IMG/VR virus record: IMGVR_UViG_3300028284_000001
Origin: a virus
Length of the DNA: 64,000 bases
Direction: 5' to 3' (one strand)
In this document: positions 5,964 through 21,842 of the stretch, in pieces
How the letters are laid out: the number at the start of each line of letters is the position of its first letter
How positions within the stretch are numbered: position 1 is the stretch's first letter
The notes under the pieces: generated by a model
The model's input: the letters and a program-made list of their open reading frames with translations, nothing else
The model's database searches: none
What the model was told of the DNA's origin: nothing
Made by a program: the position numbers and the translations under genes

Positions 5964-7118
5964 TTATTTGTAAAGTTTTGCAAACTTTTCTGCTTCGATC
6001 TCTTTTATCTTATCTGCGATTGCAGGTCCTTTTACATCAAACTGCTTCATAACATCGCCGCCATTAGTAGATGGCTTGTATTTAATGAATGCCTTTATCA
6101 TTTTAATGTCTAACCTATTTAGCTTTGCAAACTCTAAAATAATCTTTTTATCTAGCTTTACAATATCTCTCTTTTTACTTACATCAAATACAGTCTCTGG
6201 TTTTAGAGTCATTAATGATTTAAGAAATAAAATAGAATCTATTTCTTTACTTGAAAATGTTAGCCTATTTAATTGAGATTTTATTTGATCGTTTTCATTA
6301 ACACCAAATAGAGTTGCAATTTGAATTATCCAATCCCTAGTATCGATAAATCTTTTATCTACATAAACAGTAGGAAACATTACTGGCCACATCTTAAAGT
6401 ACTCTACCATCTCCAAGTATTTCTTTGGGGACTTAGCAGTAGTTACAGATTTCTTAAATTCATCTCTAATTCTTTCTGGACTAATATCTTCTAATGAGTT
6501 ATCACTAATAATAGCTTCTGCTGTATTCTTTTCTAGTTTACTACCAGTTCTACCAGCAAATCTTAGGGCTCTTAATTTTCTTAGAGGATCTTCTTCAAAT
6601 CTCTCCTGAGCTCTACCGACAGTTCTAATAGTATTACTTTGAATATCTGCAATACCACCAACTAGATCGACAACTTCTTGAGTTTCAATATTGTAAAATA
6701 GTGCATTAATTGTTAAGTCTCTCCTTAGAACATCTTGATCTATTGTAGAAAACTTCACGGCATCAGGTCTACGACCCTTTCCAATGTCTTCTCTAAATGT
6801 TGCAATTTCCATGCCCTCAGCAAAGCTAGGAGTTTTAGCAATTACAACTCCAAACTGTTGTCCTACTTCTCCGATGGTTGGAACACCACCTGATTTTAAG
6901 ATCTTAATTACTTCTTCTGGTTTTGCATCAGTAGCTAAATCAAAGTCTTTTGGTTTTTGCCCAAGCATTGCATCTCGCACTGCACCACCAACTACATAAA
7001 GTTCTCTTTTATTTTTCTTAAAGAGTTTATGTAAATCGATGACGTCTTTAGGTACATTCATCTTAAGCCTCTGTTGAGCCTCTAGTAATAACGTGTATTG
7101 TGAGTATGATTCTAACAT
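5964..7118 (-). CDS. cca: Class II tRNA nucleotidyltransferase (CCA-adding enzyme / poly(A) polymerase family)
   Basis: VGGAVRD, DFDLATD, EIATFR, RRDLTINAL, RFEEDPLRKLRALRF (EDxxR nucleotide-selection motif) and ISPERI. Confidence 0.9.
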   Translation of the reverse strand: MLESYSQYTLLLEAQQRLKMNVPKDVIDLHKLFKKNKRELYVVGGAVRDAMLGQKPKDFDLATDAKPEEVIKILKSGGVPTIGEVGQQFGVVIAKTPSFAEGMEIATFREDIGKGRRPDAVKFSTIDQDVLRRDLTINALFYNIETQEVVDLVGGIADIQSNTIRTVGRAQERFEEDPLRKLRALRFAGRTGSKLEKNTAEAIISDNSLEDISPERIRDEFKKSVTTAKSPKKYLEMVEYFKMWPVMFPTVYVDKRFIDTRDWIIQIATLFGVNENDQIKSQLNRLTFSSKEIDSILFLKSLMTLKPETVFDVSKKRDIVKLDKKIILEFAKLNRLDIKMIKAFIKYKPSTNGGDVMKQFDVKGPAIADKIKEIEAEKFAKLYK

Positions 7119-7138
7119 GGTTTATATATTTAACTTAT

Positions 7139-7206
7139 CTAATATACGAAAAAAGACCCAAACAAAAAAATGTTTAGGCCTTTATTTTGTTAAAGTTATT
7201 AACAAT
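7139..7206 (-). promoter_or_regulatory. Early promoter variant upstream of cca
   Basis: TTCGTATATTAG core with upstream TTTG; also carries the TGTTAATAACTTT...CAAAATA element seen at 20178-20201. Confidence 0.6.
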
Positions 7207-7208
7207 AT

Positions 7209-7943
7209 TTATTCTGCAAATGCTTCAATATCCCATTGGATTCTCTGCATAGGATCGTCATCTCTAAATTCTTTCTTAACCCAATCAATAAGTCCCGGTT
7301 CGAATTGAGCGTTTTGCGCCATATCACTGGCGTTCTTCCAACCGTCATTTGATGCAACATCTTCTAACCATTGGTCATATTTCTTTTGAGTCCATCTTAC
7401 TTTCTTAACAGCTTTCTTATGTGGACCTGCTCCTAAAGTTGACTTTACAGTATTATAGTGTTCTGGACCGGCAAATATACCTTCTGCCCATTCTTGATCT
7501 CTTTTATTACCGTCCCAATATTTAATCTCTTTTCTAAATCTTCTTAGTGAATAATTACCGCCTTCTATTTGCCTACTCTTTGTAACTTCTCCTTGTCTTT
7601 TACCTAATTCGATTTTCTTTTCTTCAGCAGTCTTAGGATCCATTTCGAAATGTAAAGATTTTACTAAATCTCCAATACCATCAAATTTACTTTCATTAAT
7701 AAAAGTTGAAAATTGAGTATATAAATTAAATGATTCCATTTCTAATTTCTTTTTAGTTTTATCCTTCTTAACTTCTTCTTCGTCGTCGTCAATATCTGCA
7801 ACATCTGGTACATCACCTGAGCCTATGTTTCCATTTGCTGAATTAGGTAAAGATACTTCTCCCATACCTCCTATGTTTCCAGGGCTTATTCTAGCGTTAG
7901 CTGTTTCAAAGTTTTCTTCTAATGGTCCAATAAATTCTGACAT
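7209..7943 (-). CDS. Putative internal head protein
   Basis: Internal CTS-like motif YTQFSTFINE|S after an acidic N-terminal region; last gene of the CTS operon. Confidence 0.55.
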   Translation of the reverse strand: MSEFIGPLEENFETANARISPGNIGGMGEVSLPNSANGNIGSGDVPDVADIDDDEEEVKKDKTKKKLEMESFNLYTQFSTFINESKFDGIGDLVKSLHFEMDPKTAEEKKIELGKRQGEVTKSRQIEGGNYSLRRFRKEIKYWDGNKRDQEWAEGIFAGPEHYNTVKSTLGAGPHKKAVKKVRWTQKKYDQWLEDVASNDGWKNASDMAQNAQFEPGLIDWVKKEFRDDDPMQRIQWDIEAFAE

Positions 7944-7944
7944 A

Positions 7945-8514
7945 TTATTTTGCGTCTATTTGAATGTATTCAGCGTCTCTAAGTTCAAGATTGTTATTAC
8001 CAACCTGTCTATCGTATTCACCATAGATAACATCTTTTTTACTTGCTACTGGAGAGTTCATCATTCCAGTCTTATCTATTTTTCTACCTAATTTATTACC
8101 GTTAGCATCATCCATAAAACCAACATTAATTACCATTTCATTCCATGTTGCGTATGATATGTATAAATCCCCAGAACCGTCTGATGAGTTTAAGCCATTA
8201 ACTTCGTCAGCTTTCCATTCTTCACTTAAATTAGCAGTTACAAATAATACCGTCTCCATATCTTTTGTTCCTTTTTCAACTTGATCCAAGATGATTTTTT
8301 CAGCATCTTTCTTAAAACTCTTCCATTCTTTATTAACTTCTTTTAGAGTTCCATCTACATCACCTTCATATTGAATCTTTTCGATTTCTTTTTTAAAGGC
8401 TTGCATTACTTTTCCTATTAACCCCTTAGAAGTATAAAGTCCAGTCATTCTATATGCTTTTTCGTTTAATTTTTGTGAAGCTACAAATGCTTCAAATAAT
8501 TTTACGTGTTTCAT
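7945..8514 (-). CDS. Putative internal head protein
   Basis: N-terminus MKHVKLFEAFVASQKLNE|K is CTS-like. Confidence 0.6.
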   Translation of the reverse strand: MKHVKLFEAFVASQKLNEKAYRMTGLYTSKGLIGKVMQAFKKEIEKIQYEGDVDGTLKEVNKEWKSFKKDAEKIILDQVEKGTKDMETVLFVTANLSEEWKADEVNGLNSSDGSGDLYISYATWNEMVINVGFMDDANGNKLGRKIDKTGMMNSPVASKKDVIYGEYDRQVGNNNLELRDAEYIQIDAK

Positions 8515-8535
8515 AGTTGTTTTTATTTAATTGTA

Positions 8536-10692
8536 TTACCAAGCGTAATCGAATCCTTCGATTTTAGCTATTTTTTCTTTAAGTGATAAAGCGTAATTCT
8601 TAATCTCTTTTTTATACCAAGATTCAGATGAACCAAATCTTTTTTCAGATTCTTCTTCTTGTCTAACATAATCACAATATCTAGAATAATCATCTAATAT
8701 ATTTGACATGTGATTAGAAGCATCTCTTAATTTAACCTCTTTTCCTTTTGCACTTTGACCAATTTTGATTTCTTCATATCTAGTCTTTTCACCACTAGCT
8801 AAACCTGCTTTAATTTGATCGGTTAACATATCGATTGCATCTGCTACCATTTTATCTAATGGCATTGTTGCAGCCTTAGTAGCTAAAATTTGGTGGTATC
8901 TGTCGTTGTTAGCTTTCTTAAAATCTTTATCATTAGTAAATGCAATTGCACCTGATTTAGCTTCAGCTCTAGCTGCTCTTAATTGGTCAGTAGAATACTT
9001 TTGTCTAATTAGGTCTAGGTTAATAACAAGAACTCTATCAGAAACTTCTGCGATTCTTTTACCATTATTAAGTCCAGTTCCTGACCAGCCTCTGTATTTA
9101 TGTGATACACCAACTTGGTCATCAGAACCTTTTTTACCGTCTTTTTTAAATGATTTAGTTCTTGAATATCTAGACCAGTCATTAGTATAGAATTCTCTAT
9201 CACCAGACATTGCTGCTATTAGAAGACCTCCACCTGGTACAGTTTTTAAAGAACCATAACCAGCGTCATAAGGACAGTATGGGTTATCTTTTTCGTTATC
9301 AGATATAAAGAATAATATATGCTTTGATCCACCATGTTCTTTAAACACCTTAGTTGGATCATTACTTATTACCATATCCTCATCACCTACTTTATCTAAT
9401 GCAACTTTAGCTAATCCGTAAAAACCACCAGCTAGTGACTTTAAATTTTCTTTACCGTATTTACCTTCTTTGTTACTCATCAAAATGCTAGCTAGCAATT
9501 GGCTACCTATTTTTTCATTTAAGAATCCAGATGCTCCAACAAAGTCAGAGAATGATTCATGTAAAAATATATTTTCCATATTTGTTGTTTGTGTTTTAAT
9601 ATTTTCTAGAAGACCTATTGCAATATCATTGACTTCTCTATCTCCTTTGTCAACATATCTTTTATTAACAATCATAAAAGTAAATCCATCTGCTGTTACT
9701 TGGTAATGTGGCATCATGCCTGTACCAAAGTCGTATTTATATTTAGCTGCTTTTAATTCTTTACCAACGTCCATAAATGATTTAGCTTTACCTACTAATT
9801 CAGCAAGCTTATCTAAGTGTGTTCCAGCGTCATCCTTTTCGTTAACTGCTGATTCGGCTAATCCTTGCTTTTTCATTAGAGCTAGTTCATCTTTACATGC
9901 CTTGTTAAATTTCTTAAAGTGCGGTATTGCAGATTTAGAATATCCATCTTGAAATAATTCAATTGCCATATTCAGATGGCTTGCTATTTCGTCAGCTTGT
10001 TCATCACCTATTTCTTCAAAATCATCAGAAAGTCTTAGTAACTTTTTCTCACCCGTTCCCTTTGAAGCGAATAAACCAAGTTTTAGTAATGCAACAATTG
10101 GCTCTTCTTTAGCTTCAGTAACTGATTCGTCCACTCTTGTTAAAGTATCGTAATAAATATCATCTATATTACCTGAGTTATCAAAGTTATATCCTACTGA
10201 TGCGTCGATAGTCCATTCTTTTCCATCTTGGTCTGTACCCATAAAGTATACATCCTTTCCTTCGTTTCCGTGGTCATCGATAACATCATAATCATCAAAT
10301 TCTACTTCATACTTTTTACTACCGTCTTTAAATTTAATAATAGGCCAATCATCTTTAGTGATTTTAATAGCTTCAGATATAGGGAATGCTTTTAATGTAG
10401 GCGTGTCTAATTCGCTTAAAATTCTAAGACCCCATTTTGAAAGCTTAACACCATCCTCAGAAACAAAGAAATATTTTGAATTTGAAGATCTCCACCTGTT
10501 AGGACTTTTAGATACCTTTGAAAGTATTTTAGTAAATTCCTCTTCTGTTAATATTCCGTCTTTTACTGCTTTTAAAATTTCGTTTCTAACATTAGCTGTT
10601 TTGCCAACAGTAGATGCAGGGTGGTTTTCAGTATACTTTCTTTTAATCTGTATCTTTTTACCTTCTTCTAAAAAATCTTTGAATTTATTCAT
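8536..10692 (-). CDS. Putative internal head polyprotein (718 aa)
   Basis: N-terminal MNKFKDFLEE|G, a second CTS-like motif (ESFSDFVGASGFLNE|K), and several [ILV]-x-E sites between apparent domains. Confidence 0.6.
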   Translation of the reverse strand: MNKFKDFLEEGKKIQIKRKYTENHPASTVGKTANVRNEILKAVKDGILTEEEFTKILSKVSKSPNRWRSSNSKYFFVSEDGVKLSKWGLRILSELDTPTLKAFPISEAIKITKDDWPIIKFKDGSKKYEVEFDDYDVIDDHGNEGKDVYFMGTDQDGKEWTIDASVGYNFDNSGNIDDIYYDTLTRVDESVTEAKEEPIVALLKLGLFASKGTGEKKLLRLSDDFEEIGDEQADEIASHLNMAIELFQDGYSKSAIPHFKKFNKACKDELALMKKQGLAESAVNEKDDAGTHLDKLAELVGKAKSFMDVGKELKAAKYKYDFGTGMMPHYQVTADGFTFMIVNKRYVDKGDREVNDIAIGLLENIKTQTTNMENIFLHESFSDFVGASGFLNEKIGSQLLASILMSNKEGKYGKENLKSLAGGFYGLAKVALDKVGDEDMVISNDPTKVFKEHGGSKHILFFISDNEKDNPYCPYDAGYGSLKTVPGGGLLIAAMSGDREFYTNDWSRYSRTKSFKKDGKKGSDDQVGVSHKYRGWSGTGLNNGKRIAEVSDRVLVINLDLIRQKYSTDQLRAARAEAKSGAIAFTNDKDFKKANNDRYHQILATKAATMPLDKMVADAIDMLTDQIKAGLASGEKTRYEEIKIGQSAKGKEVKLRDASNHMSNILDDYSRYCDYVRQEEESEKRFGSSESWYKKEIKNYALSLKEKIAKIEGFDYAW

Positions 10693-10694
10693 AG

Positions 10695-11090
10695 TTATTT
10701 AAGCTTTTTTGTTATACCATCAATTTCTGTATAGGCACAGTTTTGTCCCTTAACAATAAATGATCCATAAGAGATTGAAAGGTTTGCACCTTCACCTCCT
10801 GTTTTAACATGGGTTTTATATGCTTCTTCTATAGAGGCCTGATCTGCAGCAACAGCTACAACTTTAGGTCTAAAGCCGGCACCGACATTATGATCATTTT
10901 TAGATCTCAGATACATTGATTCTCCATTTATTTCTACTGTATTATGTAGTACTAAAGCGAAACTAGTTTCTCCTTTAGCTGGTAAATCAAAACCATCAAA
11001 TGAATATTTACTAAAGTAGTAAGATCCAAGCGCTATTTTCTCATTAACTACGTTATGAGTAAATGCTTCAAATGTGTTTATTGATTTCAT
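10695..11090 (-). CDS. Putative internal head protein
   Basis: N-terminus MKSINTFEAFTHNVVNE|K is CTS-like. Confidence 0.6.
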   Translation of the reverse strand: MKSINTFEAFTHNVVNEKIALGSYYFSKYSFDGFDLPAKGETSFALVLHNTVEINGESMYLRSKNDHNVGAGFRPKVVAVAADQASIEEAYKTHVKTGGEGANLSISYGSFIVKGQNCAYTEIDGITKKLK

Positions 11091-11110
11091 GTTTTAGTTA
11101 GTTTATTTGT

Positions 11111-12970
11111 TTATATATTCTTTAGAAAAGTATTAAAGGTTTGAAAATCTACTTCTGTAGATTCAGCTACTACTCCAACAGAGTTCTCTAATTTAGTTTT
11201 TAATTCTGCATACATACTATGTAATGCTTTAGGAGTTAGCTTCTTAAATAACTTCTCATCGCCGTCTAGCATTGCATTTCTTACTTGTGTTGCTGAAATA
11301 TTCTTACCTGTTCTAGGAATTTCAAATAATCCGAAATCATCTCTAACACCTAAGTCATCTCTATATTCTTGTTTATCTACTTGATATCCATAAGTCTTCA
11401 TTCTATCACTTCCTGTTCCCCATAATACTGGTTCGTATCTAGGTCTCATTGCATTAAACATGGTGTCAATACCTCCTGTTGGAATTACAAAAACTTGTTC
11501 GATTGGATATTTAGATTTTAAAGAGTTAATCATTGCCACTTGAGTGTCCTCATCATAAGGTCTTTTAAATGCATCTTCCTTTTTCTTATTCTTAGCCTTA
11601 ACTAATAATATTACTACTGGATATCCATTTTGTTTATGAATAGTTTCAACTACTTTAGCATGGCCTAGTGTGAATGGTTGGAATCTACCAACAAACATAT
11701 TAACTAGTTTTTTACCTTGTCCTGGATAATCTACCTTTAACGCTTCGGTAATTGGACTTATTTGAGTACTAATTTTCTTATTTGATAAATATTGGTTAAA
11801 GTTCATAACATCACCTTCGTTAGCTTTTGCCATTATTTTATCATCAATTTTTTCAACAATGCCATTTAACGCATCTAGCATATCACCTTGTAGAAGATCT
11901 GTACCCTTGCTTCTTTTCTTTCTAAAACTACCTAATGTAATTTTAAATAATTCTGCTAGAGTTTTATCTTGTATTAATGTTAGAGTTTTTTCATTAGTTA
12001 TGAACTTATGATTTAATTCAAACATTGGAGACTCTGCAAAATCAGCAGAATCAAATTTAGCACCAATATATTTAGTAGCATTCTTTTCAACATATTTGTT
12101 AAATACACTTGACATTAATTCTAAATATCTATAATCAGCAGATTCAGATGTTAATTCTACTAAACTAATATCCTCTTGTATAAAAAATTCTACAATATCT
12201 AAAATAGAAATCTGATACATGTCAGAAGGTTTTCTATTCTCTTTAGTTTCTTTATTAAATCTTTCTAATACAAATGTTTGTAATGTTTTTCCATCATGTA
12301 TATTAATAATAAATCCTGCAACTTCTTTAGAAAGATCGTTCATTAAAGTAGATTGCTTTAAGTTCTCATTAAAGATTCCATAAACACTTCTTGTAAAATT
12401 AGGTCTATCTTTATTTTCATACTTATCCGTATATTCATTAATACTAGTAGATAACATTTCTTTAAGACCGTCCTTTTGACCTGAATGTAAAAAGCCTTCA
12501 AAAATAACTGGAGGTCTTTGTACTTCTAAAAGATCTGCCCATTTATTTAATATTTTAGTATCTCTAATTACTTTTCTAACTTTATTAGGATTAGATGGTT
12601 GTAATACTTGGATATGTGTTAACACTAAATTAGATTTAGGTAGTACATCATATTCAATATCAATAGTTTTGTTATCTCCTAAATATTCAAAACCAAACTT
12701 CCAATCAAATGGCATTTCTTCTACAGAATCAGAAGCAACTGTTTTAAAGTGTCTAATTGCATTTTCGTAGTATCTTACAATAGTACGATCTACTACATTC
12801 ATCTTATCTTTAGAACCTGATTTATAGAATGCAAATTCAGAACCTTCTCTTTTAGCGTGAAAAGATGAACCATCAATTTTTTCTGTTACAACACATTTGT
12901 TTGATAACAGTTTATCAATGTCATTAATATTAGATCCTTCAAAATATGTTTTTAAATTCTGTAGTGCCAT
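11111..12970 (-). CDS. Fusion of an RNA-ligase-like adenylation domain and an HxGH (cytidylyltransferase/NMNAT-like) nucleotidyltransferase
   Basis: N-terminal VTEKIDGSS (ligase motif I) and GFEYL; C-terminal GRFQPFTLGH, GSDR and ISATQVR; a CTS-like linker lies between them. Confidence 0.8.
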   Translation of the reverse strand: MALQNLKTYFEGSNINDIDKLLSNKCVVTEKIDGSSFHAKREGSEFAFYKSGSKDKMNVVDRTIVRYYENAIRHFKTVASDSVEEMPFDWKFGFEYLGDNKTIDIEYDVLPKSNLVLTHIQVLQPSNPNKVRKVIRDTKILNKWADLLEVQRPPVIFEGFLHSGQKDGLKEMLSTSINEYTDKYENKDRPNFTRSVYGIFNENLKQSTLMNDLSKEVAGFIINIHDGKTLQTFVLERFNKETKENRKPSDMYQISILDIVEFFIQEDISLVELTSESADYRYLELMSSVFNKYVEKNATKYIGAKFDSADFAESPMFELNHKFITNEKTLTLIQDKTLAELFKITLGSFRKKRSKGTDLLQGDMLDALNGIVEKIDDKIMAKANEGDVMNFNQYLSNKKISTQISPITEALKVDYPGQGKKLVNMFVGRFQPFTLGHAKVVETIHKQNGYPVVILLVKAKNKKKEDAFKRPYDEDTQVAMINSLKSKYPIEQVFVIPTGGIDTMFNAMRPRYEPVLWGTGSDRMKTYGYQVDKQEYRDDLGVRDDFGLFEIPRTGKNISATQVRNAMLDGDEKLFKKLTPKALHSMYAELKTKLENSVGVVAESTEVDFQTFNTFLKNI

Positions 12971-14241
12971 TATCTTCCGTATTTTATGATACCCATTAGC
13001 TGGTTAATCGCAGCAAAAGTACCGGTTAGTTTAAAGGTTTTTCCTTTAAATTTAAAGACCACTCCTTCTGTTGGGATGATCGACTCAATACCACCAATTC
13101 CCTCTAGTCTTTTTAGTTCTTTTTCAACCTTTGCAATTTGAGTAAGGTCGCCATTCTTTTTAATCTTGCCAGCTTCAGTTCTAATCTGATTATGTAATCT
13201 TGCTTTTTCAGCATCTGGATTAGCAGCTACAAAATTAGAAGCGTTCTTTAAAACATCTGCACCTAACTCTAAAAATAGATTCTCAAAAGGTAAAATGTTT
13301 TCTTTATACTTCTTATTTCTTTGACCATCAAAATCTTTAACAGCCTTATTTTGTTCCGGTGTTAATTCCTTCTTTAATGCAGTTAACTTAAGCGTCTGCT
13401 TATCTAAGTAAGCCCATCTTAAAAGTAAACCCTCTTTGTGTGCAGGTTCTAAGTCTGCAAAGTTCTCTTCGATTTGGCCTCTCCACCACATCTCGTGATA
13501 CATTTTAACCTCATCAGTATCTGATAGACTATAAGTATCTCTTAGTTTATTTATCGCCTTTTCGTAATAGCCTACTCTATCATCAAAGTTAATGTCTTTT
13601 CCTAACTTTAAAATTTGAGGGGGAATTATTGTAAACGTCTTTTGAACATCTGACTTTAATTCTTTAAGAGCTTTAACTAGTTCTGTAGCAATATTTTGTT
13701 TTCCAGTTTGATTACCTTCACCATCAGTCTCTACAATACCATGAAATTGTATAACATCTCTGTCATAATAGATAACATTAGGGTTTTTAGAGTAAATTAG
13801 TTCCATGTTAACGAAATTTAATCCGTTCGCGAACATTGATTGGTCCTTAAGCGCTGGGAGCGCCGCTGCTAGATCTTTAGCAGCAAAGATATATGTTTCT
13901 TCAACCAGCTGTGAGGCATGACCAGTGAACATCGTAATGATGCCTGCTAGATCAAGTGGGTTTATCATTTGCCCCTTATTTCTGGCAAACATTGCTTGAC
14001 CATCTTTTACAGTTGCAAATAGGTTTTGACCATCAGTCTTTTCAGTTGCAGCCTCTTCGAAATCTAGTCCACCCTGTAATGAAGATTTAACAATAGTCTT
14101 GAAATCTGCAAAAGTTAATGAGTGGTCATCGAAGGGGTGCATCATGTGTCCTGCTGCTCCACCTTCAAATACGAAAGAGTCCAAGTTGTTCACTTGGATT
14201 TTCTCGTTTAAAAATTCTGTAAAATTAGTGTATATCTTCAT
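12970..14241 (-). CDS. ATP-dependent ligase-fold protein (DUF6267-like) with CTS leader
   Basis: GGAAGHMMHPFDD; motifs I (TEKTDGQN), Ia (ARNK), III (NMELIY), IIIa (IQFHG), IV (EGVVF) and V (FKLTG); leader MKIYTNFTEFLNE. Confidence 0.75.
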   Translation of the reverse strand: MKIYTNFTEFLNEKIQVNNLDSFVFEGGAAGHMMHPFDDHSLTFADFKTIVKSSLQGGLDFEEAATEKTDGQNLFATVKDGQAMFARNKGQMINPLDLAGIITMFTGHASQLVEETYIFAAKDLAAALPALKDQSMFANGLNFVNMELIYSKNPNVIYYDRDVIQFHGIVETDGEGNQTGKQNIATELVKALKELKSDVQKTFTIIPPQILKLGKDINFDDRVGYYEKAINKLRDTYSLSDTDEVKMYHEMWWRGQIEENFADLEPAHKEGLLLRWAYLDKQTLKLTALKKELTPEQNKAVKDFDGQRNKKYKENILPFENLFLELGADVLKNASNFVAANPDAEKARLHNQIRTEAGKIKKNGDLTQIAKVEKELKRLEGIGGIESIIPTEGVVFKFKGKTFKLTGTFAAINQLMGIIKYGR

Positions 14242-14261
14242 AAGAAGTTTTTAGATTTATT

Positions 14262-15695
14262 TTATCCTAATGATGCTGTTAATGCACCGACAGCAGCTCC
14301 GTAATCGTCACCGTGCTTAGACAATAATCCGTCTACAACTTCTTGTGCTTTTTCTTCGTCAAATTTATCACCGAAAGCTTTTCCTAAAACTGAGAAGGCA
14401 TACTCTTTAAAATCTTCATCAGACTTTACTTCTGCTTCGTTAGTAGCTTCAGTTTCAGTTTCTTCAGTTGTAGCTTCAGTTTCAGTTTCTTCAGTTGTAG
14501 CTTCAGTTTCAGTTTCTTCAGCACCTTCTTCTACAACTTCTTCTTCTTTAATAACTGGAAAGTTCTTACCATTAAATTCAAATTCTGCAGCATCTTCTTC
14601 AATTGCTTTAGCTCTTGCTGCTAAAAATGCATTGCCTTCGTTCATTACTGACTCGTTAGCCCATATTAATTCAAATGCATCTACTATTTTTTGTGCTTGT
14701 TGAGAATAACCAAATCCATCTAAGAATAAAGCCATACCTTCAACAATACCGATACCAGACCATCCTGCAGCGTTAGCTAATCCAGAATAATGATTATCTA
14801 ATAAACTCATGATTGATTTTTTACCAACTGGAACTTCTAAACCACCTAGGTTATCGATCTTTACTGAAACAGTAGTAATCTTACCACCAAGTGCTTTACT
14901 TACTGGATCTTTATATGAATGGAAGTTAGCGTCTGTTAAAGATTCTGATAATAAATATCTACAAACTCCTAATAAGAGCTGACCGTCCATTAATGCAGTG
15001 TGATTCGTAAAGAATGATTCTAACCATTTAGATACTTTCTTAGCATCTCTTAAATTACCCTTAGAAGGTTTAAATGATTCATTGATTATCATAGATTCAA
15101 ATGCTGGGACTAAATCGTAACTATCATAAACATCAACCATATACCATTTCTTATCTGTTTCAGAATATAGGTAGATAAATTCAGCTCCACCGTTATTAGC
15201 GGCATCTTTTACGAACTTCTCAGTATCTTTCATATCTCCGTCAGTAGTGGTCTTGTCGCCGTAGAATTTAATATCGTCTACATTTGCTTCTAGACCTGAA
15301 CCACCCCCTTTCTTCAGTAGAGTGTCTACTGCCTTTCCATCTTTGTAACCCTTTTTAATTGTAGGTAACATGTGGTCTGGGTAACCATCATAGTGCATAT
15401 ACACTGTTGAGATTTTTCCGTTCTTTTTGATTTTACCGATTTGTGATCTTGTACCCTCTTCAATGATCGCTATTGATTCTGATATTTCAGAACTACCTAA
15501 CTTTTGATAGAATGTATGTCTGTCTTCTTCTTTAAGTTCTTTAATAGAAGTTACTCCGAACTCTCCAAGTAGATTTTTAAACTGATCTGCAGCTACATTT
15601 CTTGCAGCTGATTGTTCTTCTTCTAATTTAGCGTTAGCTAGCTTTTTAGCACCATGTGCAAAATCTTCAAAAGATTGTAATTTTAATGATCCCAT
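14262..15695 (-). CDS. Putative internal head/core polyprotein with a YxHxDGYP domain
   Basis: Leader LQSFEDF; candidate cleavage sites IIEE|G, IINE|S, VMNE|G and ATNE|A; YMHYDGYPD motif; acidic tandem-repeat linker. Confidence 0.55.
   Translation of the reverse strand: MGSLKLQSFEDFAHGAKKLANAKLEEEQSAARNVAADQFKNLLGEFGVTSIKELKEEDRHTFYQKLGSSEISESIAIIEEGTRSQIGKIKKNGKISTVYMHYDGYPDHMLPTIKKGYKDGKAVDTLLKKGGGSGLEANVDDIKFYGDKTTTDGDMKDTEKFVKDAANNGGAEFIYLYSETDKKWYMVDVYDSYDLVPAFESMIINESFKPSKGNLRDAKKVSKWLESFFTNHTALMDGQLLLGVCRYLLSESLTDANFHSYKDPVSKALGGKITTVSVKIDNLGGLEVPVGKKSIMSLLDNHYSGLANAAGWSGIGIVEGMALFLDGFGYSQQAQKIVDAFELIWANESVMNEGNAFLAARAKAIEEDAAEFEFNGKNFPVIKEEEVVEEGAEETETEATTEETETEATTEETETEATNEAEVKSDEDFKEYAFSVLGKAFGDKFDEEKAQEVVDGLLSKHGDDYGAAVGALTASLG
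14443..14521. repeat. 27-bp in-frame tandem repeat (about 2.9 copies) encoding EETETEATT
   Basis: Unit gtagcttcagtttcagtttcttcagtt repeated head to tail. Confidence 0.95.
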
Positions 15696-15729
15696 GTGAA
15701 TAATTTTATTTTATTATTTTAGTATTGTA

Positions 15730-17238
15730 TTATATATCCCCTTCAAATGTCACATTTTTTACTTCAAAAGGAAACTTCTGTTCTCTGTAGATCTTCTGCC
15801 TAGCTTTTGAATGTCTAATTAGATAATTATCCCAATCTGGAGATGACAAATCATCGACAAAATCTATAATGTTTACGTCTGTTTTTGATTTATGTTTTCT
15901 TAATCCTCTACCTATAGATTGTCTAATAATCACTTCTGATTTAAACGATTCAGTAAAGAATATGTTATGTATTTTATTAATTGATATACCAGTAGAAAAT
16001 GTACCATAGGATGCTACGATTACAACTTCAGCCCCTGTTTCCATTTTCTTTTTATACTCTTCTCGAATATCTTTATCTGTATTACCATCTACATAGTAAA
16101 CGTTTTTATCAGAATCTTGGCGAAGCTTTTCATATATTCTTTTACCGTGTTCAATACGATGGAATAATACAAGACTATTACCGCGTACTCTGGAAATAAT
16201 GTTTGTAATGAAAGCGAGCCTACCTGTTGACTGTATAACATAATTGCTTTCAAATTTATAGACGTCTTTGCTTTCATACCTGTTTTGTGACATCTCCCTA
16301 AATGCGTTTTTTGTTGAGTCGGGAGCGTAATCCATTTTTATTACTTTTACTTTACAGCCGGCAATATGCCCCTCACCCTGTAAAAAGCTTGCACTAACTT
16401 CTGTAATTACAGGACCTGTATATGCCATTAAAGTCAATCTATCTAAAGTACCTTCTTTTGGAATTGTACCTGACATACCGAATCTATAATTAGCAGCTGT
16501 ACATTTTTGTAAAATAGTTTTGATCGATTGTGATTTAGCTTTATGTGTCTCGTCAATAAGTACTGCATCAAATTGATTAAAGTATTCTTTATCTTTTTTA
16601 ACCAGCGATTGGTATGTACCAATTACCACGTTTCTTCCTGGTCTAATTTTTTGACCAGAATAAATTTGCTGTACTTTAATACTAGCTTGGTTTCTCCAGT
16701 TATAGTCTTGGAAATCTTCAGATCCTTGTACGACAAGTGAGACATTAGGTACAATCATTAGAACTCTACCTGCTTTTTGCTTTTCTAGTAGATATGAAAT
16801 TACCATAAACGAAATAAGTGTTTTACCGGCAGAGGTAGCTAACTCACTTAAGCAATTTCTAAATTTAAGTATATTGTAAGCTGCTTCGATTTGATAATCC
16901 CTAGGTTGCATCTCTGATCCATCAAAGAAGTCCATTGCCCATTCCTCAAAGTCTGCTGCTTTTATATTAGTATCAAAAAGTCTTGTGATGCCATTTAGTT
17001 TAAGCTCGTATTTATACTGCTTACACATGTTCATCACCTCTCTCCATAGTCCAGATGGAATCCATTTATCATCTTTGATATATGAAATATAACCATCCCA
17101 TAAACCTTTTTTTACTAAAGGGTGAAATCGCCAAGAATCAATACGCCTGTTTAATGTAATATTGAGTTGTTCAATTTCCATTTCAGTCGCAGAGTCTACT
17201 CGCAGGAACTGCTTATTATCTGTTAACGTTAAGTCCAT
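15730..17238 (-). CDS. uvsW: UvsW-like SF2 DNA helicase
   Basis: PRDYQ, ATSAGKT, DETH, SGT and QSIGRGLR motifs; T4-like synteny with uvsY. Confidence 0.92.
   Translation of the reverse strand: MDLTLTDNKQFLRVDSATEMEIEQLNITLNRRIDSWRFHPLVKKGLWDGYISYIKDDKWIPSGLWREVMNMCKQYKYELKLNGITRLFDTNIKAADFEEWAMDFFDGSEMQPRDYQIEAAYNILKFRNCLSELATSAGKTLISFMVISYLLEKQKAGRVLMIVPNVSLVVQGSEDFQDYNWRNQASIKVQQIYSGQKIRPGRNVVIGTYQSLVKKDKEYFNQFDAVLIDETHKAKSQSIKTILQKCTAANYRFGMSGTIPKEGTLDRLTLMAYTGPVITEVSASFLQGEGHIAGCKVKVIKMDYAPDSTKNAFREMSQNRYESKDVYKFESNYVIQSTGRLAFITNIISRVRGNSLVLFHRIEHGKRIYEKLRQDSDKNVYYVDGNTDKDIREEYKKKMETGAEVVIVASYGTFSTGISINKIHNIFFTESFKSEVIIRQSIGRGLRKHKSKTDVNIIDFVDDLSSPDWDNYLIRHSKARQKIYREQKFPFEVKNVTFEGDI
15731..15738 (-). 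promoter_or_regulatory. Putative late promoter GATATATA heading the CTS operon
   Basis: The same octamer (or GATAAATA/GATACATA) recurs just upstream of many structural genes. Confidence 0.6.
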
Positions 17239-17244
17239 TAATTA

Positions 17245-17667
17245 TTATAGATCTTTTAGAGCCAATCTATTTCTAATAGCAAAGCCCATATTATCTAGTG
17301 TTTTTACAGAATCTCTTAGCCAATCCATTTGATTTTCTAAATGTGATAAAATCATATTATCATCTGCCAAGTCATTCTCTAAGAATTTCTCTTTCTGCTT
17401 TTCACCTAGTTTATAGTCATAATTATAGTATCTAATATATGCCTCTCTATATCTTGCAGCAATAGTTTTCTTTTGTTGTTTAATTTTGACATTTATATAT
17501 GCCATTTGATCTACGAGGGTTTGTCTAGAAGATAACACATCAGCAATAGTAATCTCCATTGTATTAATGTTACGAAGACTTTGTGCAAGGTTTCTAATCG
17601 TGACTGACCATTCGTTTCTCTGTGCACTTAATTTTTGATCTAGTGCTAATATCTTTTCGTTACTCAT
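17245..17667 (-). CDS. uvsY: UvsY-like recombination mediator (probable start MSNEK at 17667)
   Basis: About 140 aa and helical, with YIRYY...KEKFLEND...LDNMGFAIRN; adjacent to uvsW. Confidence 0.65.
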   Translation of the reverse strand: MSNEKILALDQKLSAQRNEWSVTIRNLAQSLRNINTMEITIADVLSSRQTLVDQMAYINVKIKQQKKTIAARYREAYIRYYNYDYKLGEKQKEKFLENDLADDNMILSHLENQMDWLRDSVKTLDNMGFAIRNRLALKDL

Positions 17668-17677
17668 ATATGTTATA

Positions 17678-17887
17678 TTAAAATAGTGACGGTTTGTTCC
17701 TATCTGGTTTAATAAACTTTGCAGCCTTTTGGCGCTTCTTAAGTTTAGGTTTGCTAAATTCCATGTTTGGATTTTCAGCTTTAAACTCAGGCATCTCAAA
17801 GTCAATAAGCATCCTCATTTTCTTAAACCGATCGCTATCGTTAAAAAAGTCCTCTATCGTTTCTTCCATTTCTTCTATACGTACCAT
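17678..17887 (-). CDS. Hypothetical protein (69 aa)
   Basis: Coupled to the end of the primase gene; same strand as its neighbours. Confidence 0.6.
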   Translation of the reverse strand: MVRIEEMEETIEDFFNDSDRFKKMRMLIDFEMPEFKAENPNMEFSKPKLKKRQKAAKFIKPDRNKPSLF

Positions 17888-19855: not shown

Positions 19856-19915
19856 AATTTTCTTTTAGTTGTTTAATTGTTTAATAATGAAATACTTTAA
19901 TTGTCTTTCAGTTCC

Positions 19916-19944
19916 TTATAGTTGTACAATATACAATAGTTTCA
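19916..19944 (-). promoter_or_regulatory. Putative middle promoter TGAAAC-N17-CTATAA upstream of ssb
   Basis: Third copy of the bipartite motif. Confidence 0.6.
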
Positions 19945-20160: not shown

Positions 20161-20194
20161 TTTGTTTCTAGATTATATGTTAATAACTTTGTTT

Positions 20195-20260
20195 CAAAAT
20201 AGTTGCCGAAATATTTTTTTATGTCAATTATTATTCGTATATTAGTACTGTAATTAAAAA
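20195..20260 (+). promoter_or_regulatory. Early promoter cassette (repeat copy)
   Basis: CAAAATA...TTTTTTATGTCAATTATTATTCGTATATTAGTACTGTAATTAAAAA, nearly identical to 51546-51611. Confidence 0.8.
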
Positions 20261-20269
20261 CTAATAAAC

Positions 20270-20602
20270 ATGAGTAATCCACACTACGAACACCAATTAA
20301 AATTAGACGCTATGAAGAAACATACTAAATTATCGTCGAGAAACAAAACCCTTCTTTTGATGGGGGCTAAGGCTACTGGAAGCTTTCTAGAAGGTTATTA
20401 TTATATAGAGGAAAGTTTATACATCGATGAGGCTAACTCGCTCCATTCGTTCTGTACATGGATTGATGACATCATCGGTGGCGCAGGTCCAGTTAATATT
20501 GATATGTTATGGCTAGGGTTTAAATACCCTGAAGTAGACAGATACTCTAGAGCATGTGTAGATATTAAGAAACAAATGGATGAAATTAAAGCTTACTGTT
20601 AA
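20270..20602 (+). CDS. Hypothetical early protein (110 aa), counter-oriented insert
   Basis: Occupies a gap between minus-strand genes and starts right after the conserved promoter. Confidence 0.75.
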   Translation: MSNPHYEHQLKLDAMKKHTKLSSRNKTLLLMGAKATGSFLEGYYYIEESLYIDEANSLHSFCTWIDDIIGGAGPVNIDMLWLGFKYPEVDRYSRACVDIKKQMDEIKAYC

Positions 20603-20788
20603 CCAGAATATGGCTTTTCTTAGTTAATTAAAAAAAGATTGTAGATTTGTTGAACCTTTTTGAAACCTTTTCTGGGAACTAGCATATAAGTAATGTCTTT
20701 AAGCCAAAGCCAGATAAGGTTCTGGAAGTAAGCTTTAAGTCTGTAAGCAGAGACAAGTATCAGTTAAGGGCTTGAAGCAGAGACTTGG

Positions 20789-21463
20789 TTAGTTTGGCAA
20801 ATTTTCCCCAAGTTGTGTGTACAGATAATGATTAAGAAACCAAGCGTCGACTAGATCATCAAAAGGCTTCGGCACTTTTTTAACCTCATCACCTATATCA
20901 TTTACACAATACTTAAATAAAGAAGTCTTAGCTAACTCTGGACTCTCTACTATATTATTTAAGAAAGCAACCCAAAGAGCTAACTTATTCATATTCCCTT
21001 TACCAGCATGTTTCTTAATTGTAGTAGGTGCAACGGTCAGTAAATTTTTGACCTCGAGTCTATTAATCATTTGTTCTTTAAGGATTGCAGCTCCTGCTGC
21101 CATGTCAATCATATTATTAGTTCCCATCTTAGAACCGTATGACGTACCTTCGAATGCTATATGATAATCTTCTTCTGTGTTTGTTATGCCTAATATTAGA
21201 TTAATTATATCGTCCGCAGTTTGGATATATCTTTTAATCTTTGCAAATTCGTTTTTAGAGTAATCACCTACTGAAGATTTCCAGTCAGGTTGGTGTACAA
21301 GAGTTACATCCGAGAACGTACTTATTTCTTCTTGTCTTTTTTGTTCAGCTTTTGTTCCTGAACCAGCTTTAATATAGGAGATAAAGTGATATTCATTCGT
21401 ATCAGACTGCCAGACACAGATACCAGGGGAATTAAGCGAGAAGTCAACTGTAACTAAATTCAA
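20789..21463 (-). CDS. RuvC/RNase H-fold nuclease (Holliday junction resolvase-like); probable TTG start at 21463
   Basis: VDFSLNSPG, IAFEG, PTTIKKHAGKGN and DDLVDA acidic catalytic pattern. Confidence 0.75.
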   Translation of the reverse strand: MNLVTVDFSLNSPGICVWQSDTNEYHFISYIKAGSGTKAEQKRQEEISTFSDVTLVHQPDWKSSVGDYSKNEFAKIKRYIQTADDIINLILGITNTEEDYHIAFEGTSYGSKMGTNNMIDMAAGAAILKEQMINRLEVKNLLTVAPTTIKKHAGKGNMNKLALWVAFLNNIVESPELAKTSLFKYCVNDIGDEVKKVPKPFDDLVDAWFLNHYLYTQLGENLPN

Positions 21464-21464
21464 A

Positions 21465-21842
21465 TTAGATTCTTTTACCCATCGCAGCACCTAAAGCAGC
21501 ACCGACTAATCTGGAGGTTAATAAATCGTAAAAGATACCTTTTTGAATACCTAGTACTTTACAAATAACTTTACCAACTGATTTACCTAAAGCAAATCCA
21601 GCTAAACCACCAAAGATAGAACCTAAAAGACCTTCATTCATAAAAGCTTCTTCTAATTTGTCTAATTCAAATGTACCATCTTCTTTTTGGTATTGTTGTA
21701 CAAATTGCTCTAATGCAAAATCTACTTTATCTTCTAAGTCTTGCGACCATTCTTGTTGAAGCCCTTCTTGTAAAAGTTTCATATCAGTGTCAGTTAGCTT
21801 TTGCTCAACTAAGTACTGGTTAAATGTTTTAGTATCTTTCAT
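21465..21842 (-). CDS. CTS-bearing virion protein with an acidic pro-region and a Gly-zipper cationic C-terminal peptide
   Basis: MKDTKTFNQYLVE leader; FMNE|GLLGSIFGGLAGFALGKSVG...LVGAALGAAMGKRI; GATATATA at 21847-21854. Confidence 0.65.
   Translation of the reverse strand: MKDTKTFNQYLVEQKLTDTDMKLLQEGLQQEWSQDLEDKVDFALEQFVQQYQKEDGTFELDKLEEAFMNEGLLGSIFGGLAGFALGKSVGKVICKVLGIQKGIFYDLLTSRLVGAALGAAMGKRI

What the first reader, a model, noticed from the sequence alone, without database searches (positions are those of the whole stretch)
5964..21842. Nine proteins share a T4-like capsid-targeting/prohead-protease signature: a candidate injected payload
Seen: a [FY]-x-x-[FY]...[ILV]-x-E motif recurs in the products of 7945 (MKHVKLFEAF..LNE), 8536 (MNKFKDFLEE and ESFSDF..LNE), 10695 (INTFEAF..VNE), 12970 (TNFTEFLNE), 14262 (QSFEDF), 7209 (TQFSTFINE), 11111 (MNFNQYL..ITE and C-terminal QTFNTFL), 21465 (KTFNQYLVE), and more weakly in the CCA enzyme (ESYSQY..LLE). 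Seven of these form one operon (7209-15695) behind a late-type promoter. Known: T4 internal proteins IPII/IPIII begin with the capsid targeting sequence MKTYQEFIAE, and gp21 cuts after [IL]-x-E. Inference: this phage packages, proteolytically matures and injects enzymes (ligase-fold proteins, a nucleotidyltransferase, possibly CCA) that act before any phage gene expression.
Basis: partly seen in the sequence, partly recalled or inferred. Interest (0 to 1): 0.88.

Follow-up and report, generated by a model that had tools for sequence, protein, structure and literature searches.

The report
T4-like capsid-cargo leader peptides
An abundant marine T4-like phage puts a short leader, nearly the same as the tag T4 uses to load proteins into its capsid, on about a dozen unrelated proteins, including RNA-ligase-like and tRNA-repair-type enzymes. 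They are therefore probably packed into the virion, trimmed by the head protease and delivered with the DNA, but nobody has shown this experimentally.

Summary

**Statistics.** The strict motif [FY]xx[FYW][ILV]xE begins within the first 14 residues of 4 of the contig's 102 proteins, against 0.18 expected. The loose form hits 8 against 1.7. No shuffle out of 1000 reached either count.

**Control.** The same regex run on phage T4 recovers ipII, ipIII and ipI.

**Relatives.** Across 80 related marine viral loci, the leader is kept in 80-89% of distinct N-termini of the cargo families. It is absent (0%) from helicase, primase, SSB, RuvC and tail genes. The conserved positions show synonymous codon drift, so selection acts on the peptide.

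**Head machinery.** The phage has a gp21-family (S77) protease with the catalytic His and Ser aligned, plus gp20 and gp23 in T4 gene order. A head-core gene starts MKIYKTFEEFITE.

**Expression.** A late-type promoter motif, also found before the capsid and portal genes, precedes the cargo operon.

**Cargo.** Structure models show two RNA-ligase folds and an NMNAT-like domain. The CCA enzyme also carries a leader.

**Corrections.**
- The 11111 protein has no N-terminal leader. Its copies are internal and C-terminal, and its KxDG is not conserved.
- Modules are often fused into polyproteins joined by leader/cleavage linkers.

**Limits.** Packaging, cleavage and injection remain untested. Other windows of this genome were flagged for the same system earlier in the scan.

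The parts
15730..15738 (-). Late-type promoter motif GATATATAA. It overlaps the helicase stop codon and lies 35 nt upstream of the first cargo gene.
   Evidence: There are 7 copies in the window against 2.5 expected (0 of 100 shuffles), all on the - strand. The core ATATATAA also precedes the capsid, portal and head-core genes. The motif is conserved upstream of 30 of 33 distinct orthologous regions, against 0-2 for the replication genes.
14262..15695 (-). Cargo candidate, 477 aa, unknown function (phrog_1987 domain, acidic C-terminal part). The leader is residues 1-26 (nt 15618-15695).
   Evidence: The N-terminal KLQSFEDF core is conserved in orthologs and is followed about 12 residues later by [LV]xEE. 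PHROG match 7e-16. No Pfam or Atlas lead. This is a weaker leader type with a long spacer.
12970..14241 (-). RNA-ligase-fold protein, 423 aa, with an N-terminal leader (residues 1-13, nt 14203-14241), a variable linker and an invariant core.
   Evidence: The leader MKIYTNFTEFLNE is kept in 80-84% of 45 distinct ortholog N-termini, and E13 is at least 90% conserved. In the AF2 model (pLDDT 84) the leader is a separate short helix followed by a disordered stretch at 25-31. VIA Z is 8.3 to NgrRnl, 8.0 to Trl1, 7.5 to T4 Rnl2 and 6.8 to Rnl1. E67, K68, D70 and G71 (motif I) and E392, G393 and K404 are invariant.
11111..12970 (-). Two-domain protein, 619 aa. An RNA-ligase-fold N-domain (1-381) is followed by a disordered linker holding an internal leader and cleavage site (389-409, nt 11744-11806). 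Then come an NMNAT-like domain (419-600) and a C-terminal leader-like helix (609-619, nt 11114-11146).
   Evidence: AF2 pLDDT is 81. The linker 383-409 is below 50 with a lone helix at 391-397, and there is a terminal helix at 612-618. Foldseek gives T4 Rnl2 3.4e-7, Trl1 1.7e-6, NadM 3.7e-5 and NMNAT TM 0.69. The PDB profile hit is 1f9a at 9e-6 and Pfam PF01467 scores 3e-8. The internal motif DFxxY[LI]...[ILV]xE|AL and the C-terminal LTFxxF are conserved in all orthologs. In three 1114-1122 aa relatives the tail continues as a full leader plus a further domain.
10695..11090 (-). Cargo candidate, 131 aa, unknown function. The leader is residues 1-17 (nt 11040-11090).
   Evidence: The orthologs share M.xIxTFExF, a spacer and [VI]NE immediately before the conserved body. 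89% of 18 distinct N-termini fit the loose pattern. A late-type motif lies upstream in 14 of 15 orthologous regions.
8536..10692 (-). Multi-module protein, 718 aa. It has an N-terminal leader (1-10, nt 10663-10692), a small conserved module, a variable middle, an internal leader (372-393, nt 9514-9579) and a conserved C-terminal domain of about 325 aa.
   Evidence: The N-terminal form M.KFEDFLxE|GKK is conserved. The internal ESFSxF...LNE|[AK]xxS precedes the C-domain in essentially all orthologs, although the upstream part varies from about 110 to 760 aa. No Pfam, PHROG or Atlas match.
7945..8514 (-). Cargo candidate, 189 aa, unknown function. The leader is residues 1-18 (nt 8461-8514).
   Evidence: Orthologs begin MKHIQLFEQFINE|KAY. 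The window's copy has a 5-residue insertion but keeps LNE directly before the conserved KAY body.
7209..7943 (-). Two-module protein, 244 aa. A variable acidic N-part is followed by an internal leader (residues 69-84, nt 7692-7739) and a conserved C-domain.
   Evidence: The internal leader begins with Met and ends FINE|S. Orthologs keep TFxxF[VI][NA]E at this junction behind different N-terminal modules.
7152..7183 (-). Terminator-like hairpin that ends the seven-gene operon.
   Evidence: 13-bp stem followed by a T run, 26 nt after the 7209 stop codon.
5964..7118 (-). CCA-adding / tRNA nucleotidyltransferase, 384 aa, with a 13-residue N-terminal leader-like extension (nt 7080-7118) and its own late-type motif (7122-7129).
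   Evidence: PF01743 4.7e-34 and PF12627 1.2e-6. Near orthologs keep [FY]xx[FY]xLLLE|AQQ and the ATATATAA motif about 4 nt before the ATG. CCA enzymes of another T4-like lineage carry an aliphatic ...LxLNE| leader or sit behind extra leader-bearing modules. This leader is weaker than the others.
21465..21842 (-). Small internal-protein-like cargo, 125 aa. It has a leader (residues 1-13, nt 21804-21842), an acidic helical part and a C-terminal glycine-zipper segment. A late-type motif lies at 21846-21854.
   Evidence: Orthologs begin MKTFNEYLVE or MKTYNEFIVE, up to 8 of 10 identical to the T4 CTS. 86% of 42 distinct N-termini fit the strict pattern. Codons drift synonymously at the conserved positions, with GAA 19 against GAG 17. 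Promoter motif. Glycine-zipper hints only, E 0.03-0.5.

Best explanation
The finding is the cargo-addressing system of a distant, uncultured marine T4-like myophage.

Shown from sequence:
- A leader of about 10-20 residues has an aromatic pair at i and i+3, an aliphatic residue at i+4 (or after a short spacer) and Glu two residues later.
- This leader sits at the N-terminus of many otherwise unrelated proteins, and between the modules of fused proteins.

Inferred, by homology with the T4 capsid targeting sequence:
- The aromatic pair docks the protein onto the scaffolding core while the prohead assembles. The scaffold half of the protease-scaffold fusion is itself built of eight leader-like units.
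- The gp21-family serine protease then cuts after the Glu of [ILV]-x-E. This removes the leader and separates fused modules.
- The matured proteins are too large to leave the shell. They stay with the DNA and are ejected into the next host cell.

The cargo genes are transcribed from the same late-type promoter motif as the capsid genes.

The identifiable cargo comprises two RNA-ligase-fold proteins, an NMNAT-like nucleotidyltransferase and a CCA-adding enzyme. This suggests, speculatively, a pre-delivered RNA/tRNA-repair or nucleotide-restoring kit. Most of the other cargo has no recognisable function.
For: 1. Statistics and a T4 positive control support the motif.

2. The motif matches the T4 CTS MKTYQEFIAE (PMC8442874; T4 genome) at exactly the residues shown by mutagenesis to matter: 4 and 7 for targeting, 8 and 10 for processing. 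gp21 cuts after L/I-x-E (PMC9026906). The T4 gp23 cleavage context FGSFLTE fits the same pattern.

3. The machinery is present.
- Peptidase_S77 scores 1.6e-12, Gp23 1e-45 and Portal_T4 4e-72.
- Direct blastp against T4 gp21 gives 29% identity at E 1e-12, with T4 H85 and S140 aligned to GELDHP and ISSRAAG.
- The gene order portal, small core protein, protease/scaffold, capsid is the same as T4 genes 20-67/68-21-22-23.

4. The small protein in the gp67/68 position starts with the leader in all 44 distinct orthologs. Whatever the spacer length, [IV]xE always abuts the conserved body.

5. The same fixed-junction, variable-spacer behaviour is seen in the 12970, 7945, 10695, 8536 and 11111 families.

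6. Selection acts on the peptide: codons drift synonymously at the conserved positions.

7. Family-level presence or absence is bimodal, with 0% in replication and tail genes.

8. The late-type motif is shared with head genes and is conserved upstream of the cargo genes only.

9. AF2 places the leaders as short isolated helices in low-confidence linkers.

10. The leader, the ligase gene and the two-domain gene recur in a 462-kb huge phage. All five other records with tagged CCA or ligase homologs encode an S77 protease.

11. The scaffold carries eight leader-like units, five of them at 14-residue spacing.
Against: - There is no virion proteome, N-terminal sequencing or cultured relative. Packaging, cleavage and ejection are entirely inferred.
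- [ILV]xE is very common (546 copies in the proteome), so the cleavage positions are predictions.
- In T4 the CTS has been shown to work at the N-terminus. Function of internal or C-terminal copies is not documented in the papers read.
- The operon has no terminator between it and the upstream helicase gene, so it may also be read from earlier promoters.
- The last codons of the 11111 tail overlap an ATATATAA motif, so part of that conservation may be at the nucleotide level.
- Tenacibaculum phage PTm1, a distant relative, shows no clear leader in its head region.
- The co-occurrence with S77 has no negative control, because all the records examined are T4-like.
Confidence: 0.72

Rival explanations
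1. The leader does target proteins to the prohead core and they are cut by the protease. However, they act only during head assembly, as core fillers, size determinants or DNA-end or nick handlers. They are then degraded or stay in the capsid, and there is no delivered payload acting in the next cell.
For: In T4 the core proteins gp22, gp67 and gp68 are cut into fragments that leave the head (PMC9026906). The protein in the gp67/68 position carries the same leader. Several cargo proteins are acidic and low-complexity, like scaffold proteins.
Against: The folded 40-80 kDa enzyme domains have invariant catalytic motifs. Rapid turnover and shuffling of modules resembles the arms-race behaviour of the T4 internal proteins (PMC3012670). 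T4 Alt and CTS fusions are ejected.
Confidence: 0.13
2. The motif is a docking and cleavage tag for polyprotein processing or for protein-protein assembly in the cytoplasm. The enzyme responsible could be the S77 protease acting outside the prohead, or another protease. No encapsidation is involved.
For: Internal and C-terminal copies join modules. T4-type evidence exists only for N-terminal tags.
Against: The match to the T4 CTS extends to the targeting residues as well as the cleavage residues. The tag is present on the head-core protein and in the scaffold repeats. The tagged genes share late promoters with head genes.
Confidence: 0.1
3. The recurrence is a by-product with no peptide function. 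It could be chance in an AT-rich, Lys/Glu/Phe-rich proteome, or a nucleotide-level signal around start codons such as a promoter, leaderless-mRNA context or recombination hot spot.
For: Late-type motifs lie only about 4 nt from some ATGs. MK- starts are common in the proteome.
Against: Shuffles never reach the observed counts. The conserved residues are kept through synonymous codon changes while the intervening residues vary. Internal copies lie far from any start codon. The motif is absent from 0 of about 190 distinct N-termini of the control families.
Confidence: 0.02

Closest known systems
Phage T4 internal proteins IPI, IPII, IPIII (and Alt), with the capsid targeting sequence, processed by prohead protease gp21
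   Same: - A leader of about 10 residues is the only thing shared by otherwise unrelated proteins.
- The key residues match: aromatic at 4 and 7, I/L at 8, E at 10.
- Both a contiguous form (IPII/III) and a spacer form (IPI) occur.
- Both phages have a gp21-family protease and the same head gene order.
- In both, the cargo genes vary strongly between relatives.
   Different: - The phage is very distant. Its capsid protein is about 28% identical to T4-like cyanophage capsids and nearest to huge Bacteroidota-type phages.
- Protease and scaffold are fused.
- The cargo includes large enzyme-like proteins and multi-module polyproteins with internal and C-terminal leader copies, rather than the small basic proteins of T4.
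- Nothing has been shown experimentally here.
Ejection / inner-body proteins of giant phages phiKZ, 201phi2-1 and SPN3US, matured by gp21-like proteases (gp175, gp245)
   Same: Many different proteins, including enzymes, are packed in the head, cut C-terminal to Glu after a short motif and ejected (PMC9026906; abstracts of PMC7411985 and PMC10052503).
   Different: Those systems have no short, shared T4-type N-terminal address tag of this sequence in the papers read. The head machinery here is closer to T4.
T4 RNA repair enzymes (Rnl1, Rnl2, Pnk) and the RNA-repair sets of jumbo phages (RNA ligases, phosphoesterases, CCA-adding enzymes)
   Same: RNA-ligase folds and a CCA-adding enzyme are encoded together, with a calcineurin-type phosphoesterase next door at 4917-5594. 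PMC7824862 describes such sets as counter-measures to tRNA-cleaving defences.
   Different: - The known enzymes are made after infection and are not reported as virion cargo.
- The ligase-fold proteins here match no Pfam or PHROG ligase family.
- One has a large helical insertion, and the other has a degenerate motif I.
- No kinase was identified.
Archaeal-type NMN adenylyltransferase (NadM / MJ0541 family)
   Same: The GRFQPF..GH and ISAT..R motifs are present. The PDB profile hit is 1f9a at 9e-6, and the fold match has TM about 0.7.
   Different: The domain is fused behind an RNA-ligase-fold domain. In Microcystis phage Mel-JY01 it is fused in front of the 12970-type ligase. The substrate is unknown, and it may adenylylate something other than NMN.

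Membership tests
T4-type CTS-tagged, gp21-processed capsid internal proteins | The phage encodes a gp21-family (Peptidase S77) prohead protease with catalytic His and Ser. | tested here: met
   PF03420 scores 1.6e-12. Blastp against T4 gp21 gives E 1e-12, with T4 H85 and S140 aligned to His in GELDHP and Ser in ISSRAAG.
T4-type CTS-tagged, gp21-processed capsid internal proteins | A T4-type head module (gp20 portal, gp23 capsid) is present, with core genes between portal and protease. | tested here: met
   PF07230 scores 4e-72 and PF07068 1e-45. The gene order is the same as in T4.
T4-type CTS-tagged, gp21-processed capsid internal proteins | The N-terminal leader has aromatic residues at the positions of T4 residues 4 and 7, I/L/V at 8 and Glu at 10. 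| tested here: met
   The pattern is met contiguously in the 21465, 12970 and 8536 products and in the head-core protein. It is met with a spacer, like T4 IPI, in 7945, 10695, 14262 and CCA. It is not met at the N-terminus of 11111.
T4-type CTS-tagged, gp21-processed capsid internal proteins | The leader is the only similarity among the tagged proteins, and it is conserved within each family. | tested here: met
   The bodies are unrelated (hhalign A2 against A1 finds no match; clustering with masked N-termini). The leader is kept in 75-100% of members of the tagged families.
T4-type CTS-tagged, gp21-processed capsid internal proteins | The genes are expressed late, together with head genes. 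| tested here: inconclusive
   A shared, conserved ATATATAA-type motif lies before the capsid, portal, head-core and cargo genes. Metatranscriptome contigs cover the operon but cannot give timing or transcript starts.
T4-type CTS-tagged, gp21-processed capsid internal proteins | The protein is physically present inside the capsid, and the leader is removed by cleavage after Glu. | not testable with these tools
   This needs virion mass spectrometry or N-terminomics. Only indirect support exists: fixed [ILV]xE junctions and disordered linkers.
T4-type CTS-tagged, gp21-processed capsid internal proteins | The protein is ejected into the host with the DNA. | not testable with these tools
   Inference from T4 Alt, IPI* and CTS fusions.
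ATP-dependent RNA ligase (covalent nucleotidyltransferase superfamily) | The protein has the adenylyltransferase fold. | tested here: met
   For 12970, VIA Z is 8.3-6.8 to NgrRnl, Trl1, REL1, T4 Rnl2 and Rnl1, and the top 37 rows are all ligases. For the 11111 N-domain, Foldseek gives 3.4e-7 to T4 Rnl2.
ATP-dependent RNA ligase (covalent nucleotidyltransferase superfamily) | The motif I lysine nucleophile (KxDG) and motifs IV and V are conserved. | tested here: inconclusive
   In the 12970 family, E67, K68, D70, G71, E392, G393 and K404 are invariant in 24 sequences; the motif assignment is by inspection. In the 11111 family the Lys is about 90% conserved, D and G are variable, and four relatives have Gln. 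Activity was not tested.
CCA-adding enzyme / class II tRNA nucleotidyltransferase | The protein has the Pol-beta-type head domain plus the RNA-binding neck domain. | tested here: met
   PF01743 scores 4.7e-34 and PF12627 1.2e-6, with phrog_2244 at 3e-58. CCA activity was not distinguished from poly(A) or A-adding specificity.
NMN adenylyltransferase (NadM/archaeal type) | The (H/T)xGH and ISxTxxR nucleotide-binding motifs and a Rossmann-like fold are present. | tested here: met
   G428, R429, F430, Q431, P432, F433, G436, H437 and S559, A560, T561, R564 are invariant. 1f9a scores 9e-6 and the fold match has TM 0.69-0.74. The substrate was not tested.

The most novel reading that the evidence does not exclude
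A widespread group of marine T4-like phages loads its capsid with a modular, fast-evolving set of enzymes. The set includes two RNA-ligase-fold proteins, an NMNAT-like nucleotidyltransferase and a CCA-adding enzyme. They are partly strung together as polyproteins whose internal capsid-targeting and cleavage linkers are cut by the head protease. The phage injects this kit with the DNA so that tRNA/RNA repair or nucleotide restoration is in place before any phage gene is expressed. The kit would pre-empt tRNA-cleaving or NAD-depleting defences.
Probability: 0.3. Interest if true: 0.9.

Novelty: new variant of a known kind. Interest (0 to 1): 0.72.

Why it matters
The T4 capsid targeting sequence is a classic, but it has been treated as a feature of T-even phages that carry small internal proteins.

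**What is new here.**
- The same address code, residue for residue at the functional positions, operates in a very distant and environmentally abundant marine lineage. 442 portal-gene matches were found in IMG/VR.
- The code also appears in a 462-kb huge phage.
- It is attached to large enzyme-like proteins and to shuffled polyproteins.

**What would follow if confirmed.**
- The list of what a phage delivers at the moment of infection could be read from sequence alone for a whole clade of uncultured viruses.
- It would point to injected RNA-repair or nucleotide-restoring enzymes as a counter-defence strategy.
- It would offer a natural, portable tag-and-linker system for loading proteins into T4-type capsids.

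Tried and rejected
- Megablast of the region against GenBank phages found no match.
- An HMM built from the leader of one family (21465 orthologs) picked out only the head-core protein above the shuffle background (10 bits against at most 5.3). It was too short and too family-specific to serve as a census tool.
- A sequence-profile search of the 12970 family against the PDB gave nothing relevant. Only the fold comparison identified the ligase fold.
- Pfam at E up to 1, PHROGs and the ESM Atlas gave no usable lead for the 7209, 7945, 8536, 10695, 14262 and 21465 products.
- hhalign found no relation between the two ligase-fold families, so they are not recent paralogs.
- The head region of Tenacibaculum phage PTm1 has the same synteny and a protease-scaffold fusion, but no clear leader and no proteomics-based annotation to exploit.
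- Metatranscriptome contigs from four studies cover parts of the operon. Apparent contig ends near 15698 coincide with a stretch the tool skips as repeat (15699-15736), so they say nothing about a transcript start. Contig depth cannot rank genes.
- I considered that the leader reflects leaderless-mRNA or promoter constraints. I rejected this on the codon evidence and the internal copies.

Full report
**Setting.** The window is part of a 100,897-bp viral contig, which may be incomplete. About 96 of its 102 ORFs lie on the minus strand, and GC is about 33%. The contig encodes baseplate and tail genes and T4-type replication genes: helicase, primase, a gp32-like SSB and a RuvC-like resolvase. Just outside the window lies a T4-type head module: the Gp23 capsid protein (1e-45), a T4-like portal (4e-72), a gp2-like end protector and a Peptidase_S77 prohead protease fused to an acidic scaffold-like tail. 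The capsid protein is nearest to a 462-kb uncultured huge phage (48% identity). Next come the Lak phages (37%) and Tenacibaculum phage PTm1 (35%), and it is only about 28% identical to T4-like cyanophages. No cultured close relative was found. The lineage is nevertheless common in marine viromes: 80 related loci were retrieved with one cargo protein, and there were 442 matches with the portal.

- All nine strings are in the translations.
- In the contig's own proteome, the strict pattern [FY]xx[FYW][ILV]xE begins within the first 14 residues of 4 proteins, against 0.18 expected. A version with a spacer of up to 10 residues hits 8 proteins against 1.7. No shuffle of 1000 reached either value.
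- No tail, baseplate or replication protein has it.
- As a positive control, I ran the same regex on all 282 greedy ORFs of phage T4. The strict form returns ipII and ipIII (both start MKTYQEFIAE), gp61.1 and one false hit. The loose form adds ipI, whose leader has the spacer architecture. The pattern therefore finds the known internal proteins where the truth is known.

**Conservation in relatives.** Genes from the 80 related loci were clustered with their first 25 residues masked. The outcome is bimodal.
- Families with the leader: the 12970 family 80-84% of distinct N-termini, the 21465 family 86%, the 10695 family 89% (loose), the multidomain 8536/14262 cluster 42-53%, six further small families 75-100%, and CCA 3 of 3 (loose).
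- Families without it: helicase, primase, RuvC and the 21858 product 0%. SSB and the 22409 product each have a single loose hit (2-3%).
- Some 21465-type orthologs read MKTYNEFIVE, which is 8 of 10 identical to the T4 tag.
- At the conserved positions the codons vary synonymously (TTT/TTC, TAC/TAT, GAA 19 against GAG 17), while the intervening residues change. Selection therefore acts on the peptide.
- In every family the [ILV]-x-E directly abuts the conserved body, even where the spacer after the aromatic pair differs in length. A processing site would behave this way.

**Link to the head machinery.**
- T4 mutagenesis places targeting at CTS residues 4 and 7 and processing at residues 8 and 10. 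gp21 cuts after L/I-x-E (PMC9026906; PMC8442874). These are exactly the four conserved positions here.
- The protease N-domain aligns with T4 gp21 (29% identity, E 1e-12), with T4 H85 and S140 matched.
- The gene between portal and protease, in the place of T4 genes 67 and 68, encodes a 113-aa acidic protein that starts MKIYKTFEEFITE. All 44 distinct orthologs keep this leader.
- The scaffold half of the protease protein holds eight leader-like units, five at 14-residue spacing. The leader thus looks like a single scaffold repeat. This suggests co-assembly with the core and cutting by the same enzyme (inference).

**Expression.**
- GATATATAA occurs 7 times in the window against 2.5 expected (0 of 100 shuffles), always on the gene strand.
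- One copy lies 35 nt before the first gene of the operon (15730-15738). Another lies 4 nt before the 21465 ATG. The core ATATATAA lies 4 nt before the CCA ATG.
- The same core precedes the capsid, portal and head-core genes, and a further leader-bearing operon beyond the window.
- It is conserved upstream of the 14262 orthologs (30 of 33), the 21465 orthologs (34 of 48) and the 10695 orthologs (14 of 15). It is nearly absent before helicase, primase, SSB and RuvC (0-2 each).
- The seven genes from 15695 to 7209 are separated by at most 21 nt and end at a 13-bp hairpin with a T run.
- Calling the motif "late" rests on its similarity to T4 late promoters and its position before structural genes.

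**Internal copies and polyproteins.**
- Three motifs are internal, and each is preceded by a Met.
- In the 8536 family, a leader of the form ESFSxF...LNE precedes the conserved C-terminal domain in essentially all orthologs, while the upstream part ranges from about 110 to 760 residues. The 7209 family behaves likewise.
- In the 11111 family, a conserved DFxxY[LI]...[ILV]xE|AL segment separates the two domains, and a conserved LTFxxF tail ends the protein. In three longer relatives that tail continues as a complete leader followed by another domain.
- AF2 models place these segments as lone short helices in low-confidence linkers.
- The unit of evolution thus appears to be leader plus domain, either as a separate gene or strung into chains. 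An earlier follow-up in this scan reached the same view for a 683-residue protein beyond the window.

**What the cargo is.**
- The 12970 product models well (pLDDT 84) and matches RNA ligases. Z is 8.3 to Naegleria Rnl, 8.0 to Trl1, 7.5 to T4 Rnl2 and 6.8 to Rnl1. Its motif I Lys and candidate motifs IV and V are invariant.
- The 11111 N-domain also has an RNA-ligase fold (Foldseek 3.4e-7 to T4 Rnl2), but its motif I is degenerate across the family.
- The 11111 C-domain is NMNAT-like.
- In Microcystis phage Mel-JY01 an NMNAT-like domain and a 12970-type ligase are fused in one protein, which argues that the two act together.
- The CCA enzyme is a standard tRNA nucleotidyltransferase with an N-terminal extension that carries a weaker leader.
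- A calcineurin-type phosphoesterase sits next door without a leader.
- The other cargo proteins have no recognisable family.
- The 21465 product has a glycine-zipper-like tail.
- Phage RNA-repair sets of ligases, phosphoesterases and CCA enzymes are known from jumbo phages, but are not described as packaged (PMC7824862).

**Mechanism proposed.** Steps 2 to 5 are inferred from T4. RNA/tRNA repair as the purpose of the enzymes is a further speculation.
1. The cargo genes are transcribed late.
2. The leader docks on the scaffold core.
3. The cargo is enclosed by the shell.
4. The S77 protease cuts after the junction Glu, which removes leaders and separates modules.
5. The matured proteins are retained with the DNA and then ejected.

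**Rivals.**
- An assembly-only role, or cytoplasmic polyprotein processing, cannot be excluded without experiments.
- Chance, or a nucleotide-level signal, is excluded.

**Known or new.** The principle is known: in T4, the CTS is the only feature shared by diverse internal proteins (PMC3012670). Of 21 papers in the library that use the term, none deals with marine or Bacteroidota-type phages, enzyme cargo of this kind, or internal leader linkers. I therefore class this as a new variant of a known kind.

**Limits.**
- There is no proteomic or biochemical evidence.
- The cleavage positions are predictions.
- The contig may be incomplete.
- RNA-library contigs show presence only.

Noticed in passing
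window 11111-11118 (- strand): The last codons of the 11111 gene (K-N-I-stop) spell an ATATATAA late-type motif 20 nt upstream of the next cargo gene. Conservation of the final residues may therefore partly reflect an internal promoter rather than the peptide.
   Followed up: partly
window 4917-5594 (- strand): A calcineurin-type metallophosphoesterase (PF00149, 2e-13) sits next to the CCA and ligase genes. It has no leader. It could be the end-healing partner of an RNA-repair set. No polynucleotide kinase was seen.
   Followed up: no
window 21465-21842 (- strand), residues about 70-125: The small leader-bearing protein ends in a Gly-rich, glycine-zipper-like segment (Pfam hints only, E 0.03-0.5). 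This suggests membrane activity after delivery.
   Followed up: no
L196:2305-4224 (Microcystis phage Mel-JY01): A single 640-aa protein fuses an NMNAT-like domain to a 12970-type ligase, in the reverse order to the window. It starts with an aliphatic leader-like M.KLINxLLSE, close to the leaders on CCA enzymes of another T4-like lineage (L177, L190).
   Followed up: partly
L195:3001-6554 (LR756500, 462-kb uncultured phage): The same gene pair (12970-type, then 11111-type) is present. The first gene, a following 94-aa ORF and an upstream 199-aa ORF carry typical leaders. The protease frame is 635 aa, so it is also fused to a scaffold.
   Followed up: partly
T4 NC_000866 18966-19130 (gene 61.1): An uncharacterised 54-aa T4 ORF starts MKTFKEFIKE. 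This is a CTS-like leader very close to that of the head-core protein of the window's phage.
   Followed up: no
window 17245-17805 (- strand): Orthologs indicate that the true start of this gene is the Met at residue 47 of the longest ORF. The upstream part is not conserved as protein.
   Followed up: no
L001:14492-15070 (- strand): A 2OG-Fe(II) oxygenase-like protein fits the loose N-terminal pattern (FDNF...LAE). I did not resolve whether this is a real leader or chance.
   Followed up: no
L001:321-1697 (- strand), residues 1-60: The N-terminus of the capsid protein is highly conserved up to ...KLYE|DA and is followed by a variable Gly-rich stretch. This is a candidate propeptide cleavage site analogous to T4 gp23.
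   Followed up: partly
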